Shown here one piece after another: positions 36,306 to 39,950 of a stretch of DNA of 64,000 bases. The DNA is from a virus: positions 4,917-68,916 of the IMG/VR virus record IMGVR_UViG_2512047007_000001; one strand, given 5' to 3'. Under the pieces are notes generated by a model, which worked only from the letters and a program-made list of their open reading frames with translations, made no database searches and was not told the origin of the DNA. The position numbers were made by a program, and so were the translations under genes. The stretch's first letter is position 1. Each line of letters begins with the position of its first letter.

Positions 36306-36734
36306 GTGGGCGCATCGAAAGCACAGCGGGCCACCGCGGCGAAGAAGCGCGCGCAGGCGACCGCGCTGCGCGTCGCCGGCGTCGACTGGGCGACGATCGC
36401 GGAACGCGTCGGCTACGCCTCACCCGGCGCCGCCTGCACCGCCGTGAGCGAGGCCCTGAAAGCGAACCTCCGCGAGCAGCACGACAACGTGGACCAGCTG
36501 CGCGCCCTCACCGTCGCCCGCTACGACCGGCTCCAGGCCGCGTTCTGGCCGCTCGCCATCCAGGAGAAGGACAAGAAGGCCGCGGACGTCGTGCTCCGCT
36601 GCCTGGCGGGCCGCGCGGACGTCGAGGGCACCAAGGCCCCGACCCGCCTCAACGTGGAGGCACAGAAGCTCGGCGACGAGATCATGGCCATGCTGGAGGG
36701 CGGCGGCGACGACGGGCCGGGGGACGGGCCGTGA
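36306..36734 (+). CDS. terS: Terminase small subunit
   Basis: HTH (LRVAGVDWATIAERVGY) directly upstream of terL. Confidence 0.75.
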   Translation: MGASKAQRATAAKKRAQATALRVAGVDWATIAERVGYASPGAACTAVSEALKANLREQHDNVDQLRALTVARYDRLQAAFWPLAIQEKDKKAADVVLRCLAGRADVEGTKAPTRLNVEAQKLGDEIMAMLEGGGDDGPGDGP

Positions 36735-39547
36735 GGTCCCGTGAGGACGTGGAGCGCCAGGTCCTCGCGCTCGTCCAGGCCGGCGACGTGACCGCGCTCC
36801 GGGAGGTCCGCGACGCCGTCCGCCGGGCCCGGGCGCGGAAGAACTCCCGCCGCGTCATCCGCTACATGTACGACCCCGTCGGGTGGGCCCGCGACTGCAT
36901 CGCCTGGCAGCCCGGCGAGGGCCTGACCGCCTACCAGGAGGACGCCCTCGGCGCGATCCCCACCCGGCGGCGCGTGGCCGTACGAGGCCCCCACGGGCTC
37001 GGCAAAACGGGCATGTCCGCGATCGGTGTCCTGTGGTTCGCGACGACCCGGGAGGCCGCAGGCATCGACTGGAAAGTCATCATGACCGCCTCGGCGTGGC
37101 GGCACCTGTCGGTGTACCTCGTGCCGGAGCTGCGGAAGTGGGCCAAGCGCATCCGCTGGGACCAGGTGGGCCGGCCGCCGTTCTCCGAGCGGACGGAACT
37201 CCTCGCGCTGAACCTGAAGCTGGAGAGCGGCGCGGCCACTCCGGTGGCGTCCAACAAGCCGGAGCTGATCGAGGGCGCCCACGCAGACTCCCTCCTCTAC
37301 CTCGTGGACGAAGCGAAGATCGTGCCCGACGGCACGTGGGACGCGATCGAAGGCGCCTTCTCCGGCGGCCATACCGAGGGCCCGCCCGGGCAGCTCCCGG
37401 AGGCGTTCGCGTTCGCCATCAGCACGCCGGGCCCCCCGGCCGGCCGGTTCTACGACATCCACCGCCGCGCCCCCGGCCTGGAGGACTGGTGGGTCCGCCA
37501 CGTCACCCTGGACGAAGCGATCGCGGCGGGCCGGATCTCCCAGGGGTGGGCGGAGCAGCGGGCGCGGCAGTGGGGCCGCGACTCCGCCATGTACGCCAAC
37601 CGCGTGTTGGGGGAGTTCCACGCGTCGGACGAGGACTCCGTCATCCCGCTGGCGTGGGTGGAGGCCGCCGTGGAGCGCTGGCACGAGTGGGACCAGGCCG
37701 GCCGCCCCACACTGACCGGCCGCCAGTACCTCGGTGTCGACGTCGCCCGGACCGGCGGCGACTCCACCGTCCTCGCCCACCGACACGGCTCCGCCGTCAC
37801 CGCCCTGGAGACCCACGACAAGGAAGACACCATGCGCACGGTGGCGCGGGTCCAGGCGGCCGCAGGAGCGGACGGAAAGGTCACGCCGGTGGTCGACTCC
37901 ATCGGCGTCGGCGGCGGCGTCGTAGACCGCCTCCGAGAGCTCGACGTACCAGTCCTCGCCTACACCGGAGCGGCCAAGGCCACCGGCCGCACCCGCGACC
38001 GCGAGTGGGGCTTCCGCAACTGCCTAACCGGCGACGCCCGCGTTCACCCCATCGGGGGCCTCCGGCGCATCTACCGGAGCTGGCACGAGGGCCCGATGTT
38101 CAAGGTCGAAACGGCCAGCGGTGACAAGTTCACCGCCACCCCGAATCACCAGGTACTGACGCGGCGAGGATGGGTCACGGTTCAGTCGCTCCGCGTGGGT
38201 GACCAGCTCCTCAACGCCGCGCGGCGTGATACGGCGCACGCCGGCGTTAGGCCAGAAGTACAGGACATGCCACCCATGCTCAGCGAGGTCTACAGCGCGG
38301 CTCGCCGTGCTTTCGGAGCGGAACGGGTGAAGGGCGGAACAGTGGACTTCCACGGCGACCGGCCCGTGGGTGAGGTCGATGTTGTAACGGTCAACGGCCA
38401 GTTGCTCGGCGTCGACCCACCCGGCAGGCAGCATCCCGAGCAGCGATACTTCGGTGGGCTGCTGCATGGATTTGGTCCGCTGTTGGGTGGCGGCCTTCTT
38501 CCTCATGCCCTCCGGGTAGGCGCACGGGCTGGGCGGGTAGGTGCGGCCCTCCCACACGCGCTGGTGGCGGGTAGCCCGAACCTGGCGCTCTTGGAGCGTC
38601 AACCGTTCCTCGTGAAGCCTGTTCGCCTCGCCGCAGTCACGGAGGGGTACGCCGTGATCGCGCAGCACGGTTTCGATGAATCCGTAGCTCACCCCGGCGT
38701 CTTGCGCGAGGGCGTTCCGACTTTCTCCGCTTCCGTAGCGGCGGACGATCTCCACCTCGTCCACCCGCGCCTGTCGGTTAACGCGCAGCGCCTCACGCCG
38801 CCCCCGGATCTGCACGCCATGGTCCCGGAGGATGCGGCGAACGGCGTACATGTCGATACCGAAGGCCTCCGCCAGTGGGAGTTGTGCCTCTCCCGCTTGG
38901 TACCGGGCGACCAACGCGGGCTCATCCACGCCGGTGAGGGCCACGGCCAGGCGGTGAGCCTCCCTGCGCCCACGTGGCTCGACTCCGCGTTCGCTGAGGA
39001 CTCGGTGAATGGTGGTCCGGTCCGTCCGGAACTCCTTCGTGAGCGAGTTGAGGGACTGGCCGGCGGTGTACCGCTGGACCAGGTCGTCAACGTTGAACGG
39101 ACTACGTCCGGGCATGGGGGTACCTACGTCTTCACGCTTGAGACGGATACGGGCTCCTACAGGACACGGAGCGTAGCCCACCGCAACTGTCGGTCGCAGG
39201 CGTACTGGAGGATGCGCGAGCTCCTGGACCCGGCGTACGAGTCGGAGGTGATGCTCCCGCCCGATGACGAGCTGCTGGCCGACCTCACCGCGCCGACGTG
39301 GGACACCACCACCGGCGTCCCCCCGAAGATCCGCGTGGAGACCAAGGAGGACCTTGTGAAGCGGATGGGTCGCTCCCCGGACAAGGGAGACGCCGTGGTC
39401 ATGGCGTTCGCGGGGGAGTGGATGAAGGCCGGCGCCGTGCACTCCCCGGCCCGCCCCGGCGGCGGGGGGACAGCGGCCCGGGCCGCGTCCCGGTACGCCC
39501 GGCCCATCGGCGGCGGCGGGAGCGGCAGCGGCGGGCGTGGCCGGTGA
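36731..39547 (+). CDS. terL: Terminase large subunit interrupted by an intein
   Basis: VRGPHGLGKT Walker A, LVDEAK Walker B, GVDVARTGGDST nuclease, SPDKGDA. Confidence 0.95.
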   Translation: MRSREDVERQVLALVQAGDVTALREVRDAVRRARARKNSRRVIRYMYDPVGWARDCIAWQPGEGLTAYQEDALGAIPTRRRVAVRGPHGLGKTGMSAIGVLWFATTREAAGIDWKVIMTASAWRHLSVYLVPELRKWAKRIRWDQVGRPPFSERTELLALNLKLESGAATPVASNKPELIEGAHADSLLYLVDEAKIVPDGTWDAIEGAFSGGHTEGPPGQLPEAFAFAISTPGPPAGRFYDIHRRAPGLEDWWVRHVTLDEAIAAGRISQGWAEQRARQWGRDSAMYANRVLGEFHASDEDSVIPLAWVEAAVERWHEWDQAGRPTLTGRQYLGVDVARTGGDSTVLAHRHGSAVTALETHDKEDTMRTVARVQAAAGADGKVTPVVDSIGVGGGVVDRLRELDVPVLAYTGAAKATGRTRDREWGFRNCLTGDARVHPIGGLRRIYRSWHEGPMFKVETASGDKFTATPNHQVLTRRGWVTVQSLRVGDQLLNAARRDTAHAGVRPEVQDMPPMLSEVYSAARRAFGAERVKGGTVDFHGDRPVGEVDVVTVNGQLLGVDPPGRQHPEQRYFGGLLHGFGPLLGGGLLPHALRVGARAGRVGAALPHALVAGSPNLALLERQPFLVKPVRLAAVTEGYAVIAQHGFDESVAHPGVLREGVPTFSASVAADDLHLVHPRLSVNAQRLTPPPDLHAMVPEDAANGVHVDTEGLRQWELCLSRLVPGDQRGLIHAGEGHGQAVSLPAPTWLDSAFAEDSVNGGPVRPELLRERVEGLAGGVPLDQVVNVERTTSGHGGTYVFTLETDTGSYRTRSVAHRNCRSQAYWRMRELLDPAYESEVMLPPDDELLADLTAPTWDTTTGVPPKIRVETKEDLVKRMGRSPDKGDAVVMAFAGEWMKAGAVHSPARPGGGGTAARAASRYARPIGGGGSGSGGRGR
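38021..39187 (+). mobile_element. Intein, 389 aa (C1...HRN / C+1)
   Basis: FRN|CLTGD, block B FTATPNHQVLTRRGW, block F VFTLET, block G VAHRN|C. Confidence 0.93.
38024..39115 (-). CDS. Antisense-encoded 3xHTH plus Vsr/DUF559-like endonuclease (candidate homing endonuclease) nested in the intein
   Basis: Three RYxxGxS..LA..FG...V.R.L..xGV..R repeats; PTEVSL...EQLAVDRYNIDL...VAVEVH...H...DLAEHGWHVLYFW. Confidence 0.85.
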   Translation of the reverse strand: MPGRSPFNVDDLVQRYTAGQSLNSLTKEFRTDRTTIHRVLSERGVEPRGRREAHRLAVALTGVDEPALVARYQAGEAQLPLAEAFGIDMYAVRRILRDHGVQIRGRREALRVNRQARVDEVEIVRRYGSGESRNALAQDAGVSYGFIETVLRDHGVPLRDCGEANRLHEERLTLQERQVRATRHQRVWEGRTYPPSPCAYPEGMRKKAATQQRTKSMQQPTEVSLLGMLPAGWVDAEQLAVDRYNIDLTHGPVAVEVHCSALHPFRSESTASRAVDLAEHGWHVLYFWPNAGVRRITPRGVEELVTHAERLNRDPSSPRQYLVIRGGGELVTAGRFDLEHRALVPAPVDAPEAPDGVNAGVAG

Positions 39548-39566
39548 CACCCCGGGCGGCGGCTCC

Positions 39567-39950
39567 TCAGGCGCCCACCGGGAAGACGTGCGGCTCCTCG
39601 TCCCCGTCGAGCCTGATCGTTGCCCCGTGCCCGCACTCCCCGTACACAGCAGTCACGTACGTCCCGGCCTCGGGGCCGAGGTCATGCTCCTGGCTCATGA
39701 GCCCTTGGTTGATGTCCGGGCACCGGGGACACCCCCGGGTGACCGCCCACCGGCGCCGATTCTCGGCAGTGTCAGCAGGGATGATCAGCGTTCCGCCGCC
39801 GCAGAGCCGGTCGTCCTCGCCGGCCGGGTGGAACACCATCTCCCGGCCACGCTCGGTGTCCAGGGTCACCACGGCGACAGGGGGAACGGACCTGAGGGCG
39901 TCCGCCGCCATGGCCTCGAACGCGCGCAAGAGATTTCGGTCGGTGCTCAT
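39567..39950 (-). CDS. Hypothetical protein
   Basis: Antisense ORF between terL and portal; Cys motifs. Confidence 0.55.
   Translation of the reverse strand: MSTDRNLLRAFEAMAADALRSVPPVAVVTLDTERGREMVFHPAGEDDRLCGGGTLIIPADTAENRRRWAVTRGCPRCPDINQGLMSQEHDLGPEAGTYVTAVYGECGHGATIRLDGDEEPHVFPVGA

What the first reader, a model, noticed from the sequence alone, without database searches (positions are those of the whole stretch)
38021..39187. Intein whose homing endonuclease is encoded on the opposite strand, codon-for-codon, inside its own splicing domain
Seen: TerL is split by a class-1 intein (C1 at 38021, HRN ending 39187, C+1). Its ~290-aa central region has no recognisable domain and many A/T-ending codons, unlike the rest of the phage. 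The reverse strand of the same triplets holds a 363-aa ORF (ATG 39115 to TAG 38024) with three tandem HTH repeats and a clear Vsr/DUF559-type nuclease (TEVSL...QLAVDRYNID...VAVEVH...H...L..HGWHVLYFW). The antisense stop is the intein's second codon (rare CTA-Leu). The antisense start sits in the C-terminal splicing region, so both Hint halves are dual-coding. Established: intein homing endonucleases are normally in-frame domains. I recall reports of actinobacteriophage inteins with alternate-frame endonucleases; whether an opposite-strand arrangement is described needs a literature check. Inference: this is a mobile bi-directional gene in which the nuclease can be expressed early from an antisense promoter, independent of late terL expression, and its transcript is antisense to terL mRNA.
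Basis: partly seen in the sequence, partly recalled or inferred. Interest (0 to 1): 0.95.

Follow-up and report, generated by a model that had tools for sequence, protein, structure and literature searches.

The report
Terminase intein with antisense homing endonuclease
A self-splicing protein insert (intein) in this phage's DNA-packaging gene carries its DNA-cutting "homing" enzyme as a separate gene on the opposite strand, codon against codon; this is real and under selection, but a 2025 preprint already described the layout for phage head genes, so this is a new host gene for a known design.

Summary
TerL (36731-39547, +) carries a 389-codon class-1 intein (38021-39187). A close relative (phage TurkishDelight) and one sequencing run show the empty site.

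The minus strand holds a 363-aa ORF (39115 to 38024) in exact codon register. It encodes three HTH_58 repeats plus a Vsr/DUF559-like nuclease (AF2 pLDDT 90; Z 9.7 to Vsr 1CW0).

Among eleven homologous TerL inteins, the sense frame is constrained only at codons 1-20 and 366-389. The antisense frame is constrained at 71-349. Both are constrained at 21-70 and 350-365.

Inside intein block B, sense wobble bases are fixed against codon bias (GTA, AAT, ACC, CCG), which preserves the nuclease motif Y-x-V-I-R-G-x-G.

All 42 loci examined share the layout, mostly in MuF head genes. The TerL-hosted ones form a single clade.

Gosselin et al. (bioRxiv 2025) already describe "VSR -1 ORF" inteins, all 16 in MuF genes. 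This scan has also met the design repeatedly on other DNA. I therefore class it as a new member of a known kind, with TerL as a new host.

Antisense transcription, early timing, cleavage and splicing remain untested.

The parts
36731..38020 (+). TerL N-extein (430 codons)
   Evidence: phrog_2 terminase large subunit, E 4.6e-40. It is 87% identical to TurkishDelight terminase. GC3 is 0.94.
38021..39187 (+). Class-1 intein, 389 codons (C1 ... VAHRN)
   Evidence: Absent from TurkishDelight TerL and from a 92-nt contig of run X12 that joins 38020 to 39192. Pfam Intein_splicing scores 22 bits, below the cut-off. The same site is occupied in 15 TerL loci.
38021..38230 (+). N-terminal splicing region (codons 1-70: block A CLTGDARV, block B T-A-T-P-N-H, then GWVTVQSLRVGDQLL)
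   Evidence: Sense pN/pS is 0.30 for codons 1-20, 0.50 for 21-46 and 0.74 for 47-70 in 11 TerL inteins. Invariant columns are listed.
38132..38155 (.). Dual-constrained block B codons: sense T38-A-T40-P-N-H43-Q-V45, antisense Y321-L-V-I-R-G-G-G328
   Evidence: In 35 non-duplicate loci, Thr38 is ACC in 29 of 29, Val45 is GTA in 27 of 29 (background 7%), Asn42 is AAT in 24 of 32 (background 17%) and Pro41 is CCG in 23 of 27. The antisense residues are 83-94% conserved in 125 representatives.
38231..39067 (+). Central sense 'linker' (codons 71-349), the translated shadow of the antisense gene
   Evidence: No domain hit. Sense pN/pS is 0.9-1.2 in most of it (0.54 at the catalytic motif, codons 101-125), against 0.54-0.77 for the antisense frame. 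Sense pos1 GC exceeds pos3 GC. AF2 pLDDT is about 20-35, but the alignment was shallow.
39068..39187 (+). C-terminal splicing region (codons 350-389: ...LDQVVNVE..., block F TYVFTLETDTGSY, block G RSVAHRN)
   Evidence: Sense pN/pS is 0.38 for codons 366-389, against 1.52 for the antisense frame. Codons 350-365 are constrained on both strands, 0.75 and 0.45.
39188..39547 (+). TerL C-extein, beginning with Cys+1 (TGT 39188-39190)
   Evidence: 82% identical to the TurkishDelight C-terminus, where the +1 residue is Val.
38024..39115 (-). Homing-endonuclease gene, 363 aa (ATG 39115-39113, TAG 38026-38024)
   Evidence: There are 2835 representatives at E<=1e-3. The start codon ATG/TTG/GTG is conserved in position in relatives.
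38603..39115 (-). Three tandem HTH units (HEN residues 1-171)
   Evidence: Pfam HTH_58, three stretches. AF2 shows three repeats of three helices plus a linker helix at pLDDT >90. Resolvase/Tc3/Hin-type HTH matches reach Z 5-6.5.
38183..38515 (-). Vsr/DUF559-like nuclease core (HEN residues 201-311). Conserved residues: E222, Q238, Y244, N245, D247, E256, H258, R273, G281, W282
   Evidence: VIA-align gives 1cw0_A Z 9.7, 3hrl_A Z 7.8 and 3r3p_B Z 7.8. The family profile matches 3hrl at E 3.7e-6.
38081..38158 (-). HEN C-terminal beta strands (residues 320-345), opposite intein codons 21-46
   Evidence: AF2 pLDDT is 90-95 for residues 311-340 and 74 for 341-350. The Vsr structural alignment reaches residue 334. 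The motif is conserved.
38027..38071 (-). Variable, probably disordered HEN tail (residues 349-363), opposite intein block A
   Evidence: pLDDT <50. Antisense pN/pS is 1.34. The stop position differs among relatives.
39122..39127 (-). Shine-Dalgarno-like GTAGGT, 6 nt before the ATG, inside intein block F codons
   Evidence: An AGG(A/T) motif lies 6-9 nt upstream of the start in 9 of 10 TerL-type loci. This is a pattern only, not shown to function.
39567..39950 (-). Leftward gene converging on terL, a possible but unproven source of antisense transcription
   Evidence: GC3 0.87. No terminator-like site lies between it and the HEN start. The arrangement is not conserved in relatives.

Best explanation
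This is a mobile intein of the 'antisense VSR-like homing endonuclease' kind, sitting in the large terminase gene.

Splicing side. TerL is translated straight through the insert. A small Hint domain, made from about 70 N-terminal and 40 C-terminal intein residues, splices the two TerL halves. The roughly 280 residues between them are a meaningless, probably disordered read-out of the other strand.

Endonuclease side. The minus strand of the same triplets is a real gene. Its 363-aa product has three helix-turn-helix units that would read a long DNA site, plus a Vsr/DUF559-type (EDxHD-like) nuclease domain. When made, the enzyme should cut terL alleles that lack the insert (...TTCCGCAAC GTCAGGTCG...). 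Repair from the intein-bearing copy would then spread the intein and its endonuclease gene together.

Overlap. The overlap is more than nested ORFs. The nuclease's C-terminal strands and the intein's catalytic block B use the same codons, and both reading frames are under purifying selection there.

Shown here: the anatomy, the domain and fold identity, selection on each strand, conservation of the layout, a natural empty allele, and one likely horizontal move.

Inferred: transcription and translation of the minus-strand gene, its cleavage site, and splicing.
For: Boundaries and empty site.

HEN domains and fold:
- HTH_58 at E 7.5e-22.
- AF2 pLDDT 90.4.
- Vsr 1cw0 Z 9.7, DUF559-like 3hrl Z 7.8, I-Bth0305I 3r3p Z 7.8.
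- Family profile against 3hrl, E 3.7e-6.

Strand-specific selection in 11 TerL inteins (five-sequence version):
- Sense-only constraint at codons 1-20 (pN/pS 0.30 against 1.34) and 366-389 (0.38 against 1.52).
- Antisense-only constraint at 71-349 (sense 0.9-1.2, antisense 0.54-0.77), apart from the catalytic motif at codons 101-125, where both frames read about 0.55-0.6.
- Both frames constrained at 21-70 and 350-365.
- The GC3 flip agrees.

Block B wobble bases are fixed against codon bias and preserve the antisense residues.

The start codon is conserved in position, with an AGG motif upstream.

In all 42 loci with DNA, the host frame is open in register across the HEN. This includes six loci at 51-53% GC.

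Mobility:
- Run X12 holds both the intein-plus contigs and a contig joining 38020 to 39192 with GTCA between (N-V-R), at similar depth.
- Intein pieces differ from the window by 0.1-0.4%, while N-extein pieces differ by 1-11%, in four runs.
- L017 has a TerL only 34-38% identical to the others, but a HEN 48-56% identical and nested in their clade.

Published relatives are homologous: Fosterous, Vivi2 and Angelicage match at E 1e-28 to 6e-31 and lie antisense in MuF genes.
Against: - There is no evidence of antisense transcription or of the protein. No RNA run holds the stretch, and four RNA runs gave 0 reads, which is no test.
- No sigma-70-like promoter was found in 37800-39800.
- The Hint fold could not be confirmed by modelling (pLDDT 34 with a four-sequence alignment).
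- Pfam Intein_splicing is below its cut-off here.
- The penultimate intein residue is Arg, not the usual His (His sits at -3).
- Among most TerL hosts, HEN identity tracks extein identity (r 0.55). Long-term inheritance therefore looks largely vertical.
- The X12 empty allele rests on a single 92-nt contig.
Confidence: 0.8

Rival explanations
1. The intein is now a vertically inherited passenger, and the antisense endonuclease gene is a silent or decaying relic. It stays open only because high GC content makes antisense stops rare.
For: Open antisense frames are cheap here (P about 0.39 for 363 codons). HEN and extein identities are broadly correlated. There is no expression evidence.
Against: Antisense pN/pS is 0.45-0.77 over about 300 codons between loci only 40-70% identical. 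Catalytic residues are invariant in 125 representatives. The start codon and the AGG motif are conserved. The frame is kept open at 51-53% GC as well. An empty allele coexists in one run, and one intein sits in a far more divergent TerL.
Confidence: 0.1
2. The minus-strand protein or its transcript serves the phage rather than the intein. It could be an antisense regulator of terL, a DNA-binding regulator, or a nuclease used against competing phages, with homing only secondary.
For: The transcript would necessarily be antisense to terL mRNA. Three HTH units could act as a regulator. The leftward gene at 39567-39950 could feed transcription into it.
Against: All 42 family loci checked sit inside inteins, in MuF genes or in two unrelated TerL sites. 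Association with the intein, not with a host function, is therefore what is conserved. The convergent neighbour is not conserved. Nuclease residues are invariant.
Confidence: 0.07
3. [quoted passage not shown]
For: The Pfam intein hit is below threshold, and the Hint fold was not confirmed by AF2.
Against: Blocks A, B, F and G, Cys1, the terminal Asn and Cys+1 are conserved under sense-frame selection. The sense frame is open in every locus. Related loci reach the Pfam intein cut-off (41 bits in L037). The centre shows sense pN/pS of about 1 and an antisense codon signature.
Confidence: 0.02

Closest known systems
Anti-sense VSR-like HEN inteins ('VSR -1 ORF') of actinobacteriophages. Gosselin, Arsenault and Gogarten, bioRxiv 10.1101/2025.01.02.630785
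   Same: Same design. A class-1 intein has a middle that is the reverse strand of a Vsr-like endonuclease gene with an N-terminal helical DNA-binding part. The published best PDB match is also the same (1CW0, Z 10.6; here Z 9.7). The published members (Fosterous, Vivi2, Angelicage, Malisha, Sejanus and others) are true homologues of this HEN.
   Different: All 16 published cases are in MuF-like minor capsid genes. This one is in TerL, and its TerL group forms a separate clade. [quoted passage not shown] Here the HEN ORF runs through block B, with both frames under selection.
Antisense LAGLIDADG inteins (Synechocystis DnaX, Chloroflexus SpoVR-like; Gorbalenya 1998 and Gogarten 2002, as cited in the preprint), and the TerL inteins with antisense HNH genes noted earlier in this scan
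   Same: An endonuclease gene on the opposite strand inside an intein. TerL is a host in the HNH cases.
   Different: The nuclease family and DNA-binding modules differ. I did not compare the sequences.
EDxHD / Vsr-like homing endonucleases: I-Bth0305I (PMC3239194) and the 'fractured gene' split-intein loci (Dassa et al. 2009, PMC2677866)
   Same: N-terminal tandem HTH/NUMOD-type DNA-binding repeats plus a C-terminal Vsr-fold nuclease, associated with inteins or introns in phage genes. Terminase was already listed as a host of split inteins.
   Different: Those genes are free-standing, lying between split-intein halves or inside group I introns and overlapping their neighbours by at most 6-69 bp. 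Here the gene is fully nested antisense in a contiguous intein. Sequence similarity to 3r3p is not detectable; only the fold matches (Z 7.8).
Canonical bifunctional inteins with an in-frame LAGLIDADG or HNH domain
   Same: The same two functions, splicing and homing, at one insertion site in an essential gene.
   Different: The endonuclease here is a separate polypeptide from a separate transcript. The in-frame centre is non-functional filler.

Membership tests
Class-1 intein (Hint splicing domain) | Cys/Ser at position 1 (block A) and a nucleophile at +1 | tested here: met
   C1 (CLTGDARV) and Cys+1. Both are invariant in 11 TerL-type inteins.
Class-1 intein (Hint splicing domain) | Block B TxxH | tested here: met
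   T40-P-N-H43. His43 is CAC or CAT in all 35 loci.
Class-1 intein (Hint splicing domain) | Blocks F and G ending in His-Asn | tested here: inconclusive
   The terminal Asn is present and block F is conserved (YVFTLET.TGSY). The end reads H-R-N, with Arg or Lys penultimate and His at -3. Some known inteins lack the penultimate His (from my own knowledge, not tested here).
Class-1 intein (Hint splicing domain) | The insert is absent from colinear homologues of the host protein | tested here: met
   TurkishDelight TerL and the X12 joint contig.
Class-1 intein (Hint splicing domain) | Match to a curated intein model or Hint fold | tested here: inconclusive
   PF14890 scores 20-22 bits against a cut-off of 35.8, although relative L037 reaches 41 bits. 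The AF2 model has pLDDT 34.
Class-1 intein (Hint splicing domain) | Protein splicing | not testable with these tools
   Inferred only, from the fact that TerL is essential.
Anti-sense VSR-like HEN intein (Gosselin et al. 2025) | Endonuclease ORF on the strand opposite the intein, within its bounds | tested here: met
   39115 to 38024 on the minus strand, inside 38021-39187 and in codon register.
Anti-sense VSR-like HEN intein (Gosselin et al. 2025) | Vsr-like catalytic fold of that ORF | tested here: met
   1cw0_A Z 9.7, rmsd 2.8, 109 residues aligned.
Anti-sense VSR-like HEN intein (Gosselin et al. 2025) | Homology to the published members | tested here: met
   tblastn hits to Fosterous, Affeca, Vivi2, Angelicage, Malisha and Sejanus at E 1e-28 to 2e-12, antisense to the annotated MuF genes.
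EDxHD / Vsr-like homing endonucleases (I-Bth0305I) | N-terminal HTH/NUMOD repeats plus a C-terminal Vsr-fold nuclease | tested here: met
   Three HTH_58 units and a Vsr-like core.
EDxHD / Vsr-like homing endonucleases (I-Bth0305I) | The composite catalytic motif E, D, H, D | tested here: inconclusive
   E222, D247, E256 and H258 are invariant or nearly so. I did not map them residue by residue onto 3r3p, and there is no sequence-level hit to 3r3p.
EDxHD / Vsr-like homing endonucleases (I-Bth0305I) | Cleaves the insert-free allele next to the insertion site | not testable with these tools
The natural empty-site sequence is recovered.
Pfam DUF559 (PF04480) | Score above the gathering threshold | tested here: not met
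   12.5 bits against 20.6 for the single sequence. The family profile does match the DUF559-type structure 3hrl at E 3.7e-6, so the relation is at superfamily level.

The most novel reading that the evidence does not exclude
The endonuclease and the intein may be one co-evolved, inseparable coding unit rather than a recent guest in a host intein.

- The nuclease's last folded strands (Y-x-V-I-R-G-x-G-E) and the intein's catalytic block B (F-T-x-T-P-N-H-x-V) are written in the same codons, under purifying selection on both strands.
- Every family member examined with DNA (42 of 42) lies inside an intein.
- If so, this HEN family may have no free-standing members. That would argue against the published idea that these ORFs lie outside the splicing domain and arose by a rare recent invasion of a free-standing gene.
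Probability: 0.45. Interest if true: 0.6.

Novelty: new member of a known kind. Interest (0 to 1): 0.42.

Why it matters
It extends a recently described, experimentally untouched class of mobile element to the terminase gene. These are inteins whose homing enzyme is a separate antisense gene. The work shows that the class is large: 2835 representative proteins, and every locus checked is nested in an intein.

It also gives a clean natural case of two folded protein segments encoded on opposite strands of the same codons, both under selection. Such cases are useful for studying overlapping-gene evolution.

There is a practical side. Gene callers annotate either the host gene or the endonuclease, never both. 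Terminase genes in such phages therefore appear fragmented, or the endonuclease goes unseen.

Tried and rejected
- Single-sequence locus searches in viral and genome contigs found nothing.
- The 125-sequence alignment was too diverse for pattern search. A 13-sequence alignment then found 33 loci.
- Foldseek on the whole three-domain model gave no significant PDB hit. VIA-align did.
- Phmmer of the single HEN against PDB sequences gave nothing meaningful.
- AF2 of the sense intein with four sequences was uninformative (pLDDT 34). The contrast with the HEN model (pLDDT 90) is therefore not a fair comparison, and I do not use it as evidence.
- No run on record as RNA holds the stretch. Four raw-read RNA runs with the same species label gave zero reads, which is no test.
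- The sigma-70 promoter scan was empty. TAGG-type motifs upstream of the HEN are explained by conserved sense residues (T-G-S-Y), so I do not call them a promoter.
- The idea that the HEN is transcribed by read-through from the convergent gene at 39567-39950 is possible in this phage. It is not a conserved feature.
- Candidates that looked free-standing in the gene-call tables (P0036, P0074) also proved to lie antisense in inteins.
- Open-frame length as evidence was rejected after the chance calculation.
Full report
**What is there**

The window is part of a 78-kb IMG/VR virus record. It is related to Streptomyces phage TurkishDelight.

The 938-codon ORF at 36731-39547 (+) is the large terminase (phrog_2, E 4.6e-40). 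Aligned with TurkishDelight terminase (547 aa), the two match at 87% over the N-terminal part and 82% over the C-terminal part. The window protein has exactly 389 extra residues between ...EWGFRN and RSQAYW.

The insert begins with Cys (38021) and has T-P-N-H at residues 40-43. It ends ...VAHRN (39187) and is followed by Cys, where the empty allele has Val. That is the anatomy of a class-1 intein. The Pfam intein model scores only 20-22 bits against a cut-off of 35.8.

**The antisense gene**

On the minus strand, ATG 39115 to TAG 38024 encodes 363 aa. The register is exact: HEN residue i lies opposite intein residue 366-i. The stop is the reverse of the intein's second codon, CTA, which makes up 1.2% of Leu codons in the phage.

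- Pfam finds three HTH_58 stretches (E 7.5e-22) and a weak DUF559 hit.
- With a 125-sequence alignment, AlphaFold2 gives pLDDT 90.4. The model has three repeats of a three-helix HTH unit, an alpha/beta nuclease core (residues 201-311), three further strands (320-345) and a disordered end.
- The best structural match is E. coli Vsr (1cw0, Z 9.7, 109 residues). Next come the DUF559-type protein 3hrl and the I-Bth0305I catalytic domain 3r3p, both at Z 7.8.
- The family profile also matches 3hrl by sequence (E 3.7e-6).
- E222, Q238, Y244, N245, D247, E256, R273, G281 and W282 are invariant or nearly so across the family.

**Is it more than chance?**

Frame openness is not informative here. At 73% GC, the in-register antisense frame of ordinary genes has only 2.6 stops per 1000 codons. 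The chance of 363 open codons is about 0.39, and the chance that the sense frame stays open over the HEN is about 0.45. The real evidence is as follows.

(a) Codon-position GC. The exteins have GC3 of 0.93-0.94. In the centre of the intein the pattern reverses, with sense pos1 at 0.82 and pos3 at 0.73.

(b) Strand-specific selection. I used a codon alignment of 11 homologous TerL inteins, 40-70% identical.

| Intein codons | Sense pN/pS | Antisense pN/pS |
|---|---|---|
| 1-20 | 0.30 | 1.34 |
| 21-46 | 0.50 | 0.69 |
| 47-70 | 0.74 | 0.61 |
| 71-349 | 0.9-1.2 | 0.54-0.77 |
| 350-365 | 0.75 | 0.45 |
| 366-389 | 0.38 | 1.52 |

The 71-349 row gives the range of the sub-blocks. The exception is the catalytic-motif block at codons 101-125, where both frames score about 0.55-0.6.

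The sense frame therefore matters only at the two ends. The antisense frame matters in the middle, and both matter in two junction zones.

**Dual coding inside block B**

The HEN motif Y321-x-V-I-R-G-x-G328-E is 83-94% conserved in 125 representatives. It is the mirror of intein block B, F-T-x-T-P-N-H-x-V.

In 35 non-duplicate loci, the sense wobble bases are fixed in ways that codon bias does not explain.

| Sense residue | Codon used | Count | Background usage |
|---|---|---|---|
| Val45 | GTA | 27 of 29 | 7% |
| Asn42 | AAT | 24 of 32 | 17% |
| Thr38 | ACC | 29 of 29 | 49% |
| Pro41 | CCG | 23 of 27 | 55% |

Each choice preserves the antisense residue (Tyr, Ile, Gly, Arg). The rows are related by descent, so these counts are not independent. 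Even so, sense third positions in the neighbouring codons 1-20 differ at 51% of pairwise comparisons. The fixation is therefore local.

At the C-terminal side, the HEN ORF starts at intein codon 365 (His CAT = ATG). It overlaps only the strand before block F. Blocks F and G carry its leader, including an AGG motif 6-9 nt upstream that recurs in 9 of 10 relatives.

**How general is it?**

- A full scan of 1.84 billion representative proteins gives 2835 relatives at E<=1e-3.
- In all 42 loci for which I obtained DNA, the host frame is open in register across the HEN. Six of these loci have 51-53% GC.
- Fifteen loci are in this TerL family at the same site, (F/M)xN|C...(H/A)(R/K)N|CR(S/A).
- Most of the others that I scanned are in MuF head-morphogenesis genes. 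Two are in a Terminase_3-type TerL at a different site.
- On a tree of the HEN C-terminal 200 residues, the TerL-site HENs form one group (support 100/99). With midpoint rooting it falls among MuF-hosted lineages. This fits a single move into this TerL site, but the direction is not established.

**Signs of mobility**

- In run X12, contigs carrying the intein (depth 9-10) coexist with a 92-nt contig (depth 11.5). That contig joins 38020 to 39192 with GTCA between, giving ...F-R-N-V-R-S..., the same empty site as TurkishDelight. It is one short contig, so I treat it as suggestive.
- In four runs from four studies, pieces covering the intein differ from the window by 0.1-0.4%. Pieces of the N-extein differ by 1-11%.
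- Locus L017 has a TerL only 34-38% identical to the other hosts. Its HEN is 48-56% identical to theirs and nested among them.
- Elsewhere, HEN and extein identities are roughly correlated (r 0.55). Most long-term inheritance therefore looks vertical.

**What is not shown**

Nothing here shows that the minus strand is transcribed or translated, when that happens, where the enzyme cuts, or that TerL splices.

- No sigma-70-like promoter was found.
- No RNA data were usable.
- A leftward gene (39567-39950) converges on terL with no terminator-like site in between. It could supply antisense transcription in this phage, but relatives lack that arrangement.

**Comparison with the literature**

[quoted passage not shown] Their VSR-like case gives the same Vsr match, 1CW0 at Z 10.6.

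Their table lists 16 'VSR -1 ORF' inteins, all in MuF-like minor capsid genes. Several of them are the very phages my tblastn search recovered.

According to that preprint, antisense LAGLIDADG inteins were reported by Gorbalenya (1998). Vsr-like homing endonucleases were defined by Dassa et al. 2009 (PMC2677866) and Taylor et al. 2011 (PMC3239194).

This scan has also noted the design many times on other DNA, with Vsr-like genes in MuF and HNH genes in TerL. It has not noted this particular sequence.

New here, relative to what I could read, are the TerL host and site for the VSR-like type, and the demonstration that the overlap reaches into the splicing domain with selection on both strands. 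The preprint states that the second ORFs typically lie outside the splicing domain.

**Verdict**

The feature is real and well supported, and it is a new member of a known kind. Interest is moderate. The most novel defensible reading is an obligate, co-evolved sense/antisense unit, and it needs the frame-separating mutants listed under next steps.

Noticed in passing
window 38020/39192 (run X12): One sequencing run holds both the intein-bearing form and a 92-nt contig with the precise intein-free terL junction (AAC GTC AGG), at similar depth. This is a possible natural presence/absence polymorphism.
   Followed up: partly
window 38014-38022 and 39181-39189: A 9-bp direct repeat, CCGCAACTG, spans both intein junctions (Arg-Asn-Cys codons at each end). 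The DNA-level boundaries are therefore ambiguous by up to 9 bp. The repeat is not present in relatives whose N-extein ends differently.
   Followed up: partly
L041:657-2924 and L042 (IMG/VR contigs): A Terminase_3-type TerL carries the same kind of intein with an antisense Vsr-like gene at a different site, near residue 160 in the ATPase part. Its HEN forms a separate clade, so this is a second terminase host.
   Followed up: partly
L003 (phage Snoke) and the TerL loci; compare window 38018-39196: The MuF-type site (...HPN|C...HN|CRS) and the TerL site (...FRN|C...RN|CRS) share Asn before and Cys-Arg-Ser after the insert. Target similarity may have allowed the jump between genes. This is untested.
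   Followed up: partly
L031:1188-3512 and L029:3-3848: MuF host proteins of related inteins carry C-terminal add-on domains: an ADP-ribosyltransferase exoenzyme-like domain in L031 and a 2'-5' RNA ligase/2H-like domain in L029.
   Followed up: no
L006 (ENA contig_87054): The TerL exteins on both sides of the intein look frameshifted, while the intein and the HEN frames are intact. This could be assembly error or a decaying host gene.
   Followed up: no
window 39452-39455: 6-bp insertions (GCCCCG or CCGGGG) occur in the Gly/Pro-rich C-terminal tail of TerL in three runs. This points to length polymorphism of a low-complexity tail.
   Followed up: no
L005, L006, L007, L011 gene-call tables: Automatic gene callers kept the antisense endonuclease and split or dropped the terminase or MuF gene. 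Public protein sets therefore hold the HEN while the host gene appears broken.
   Followed up: partly
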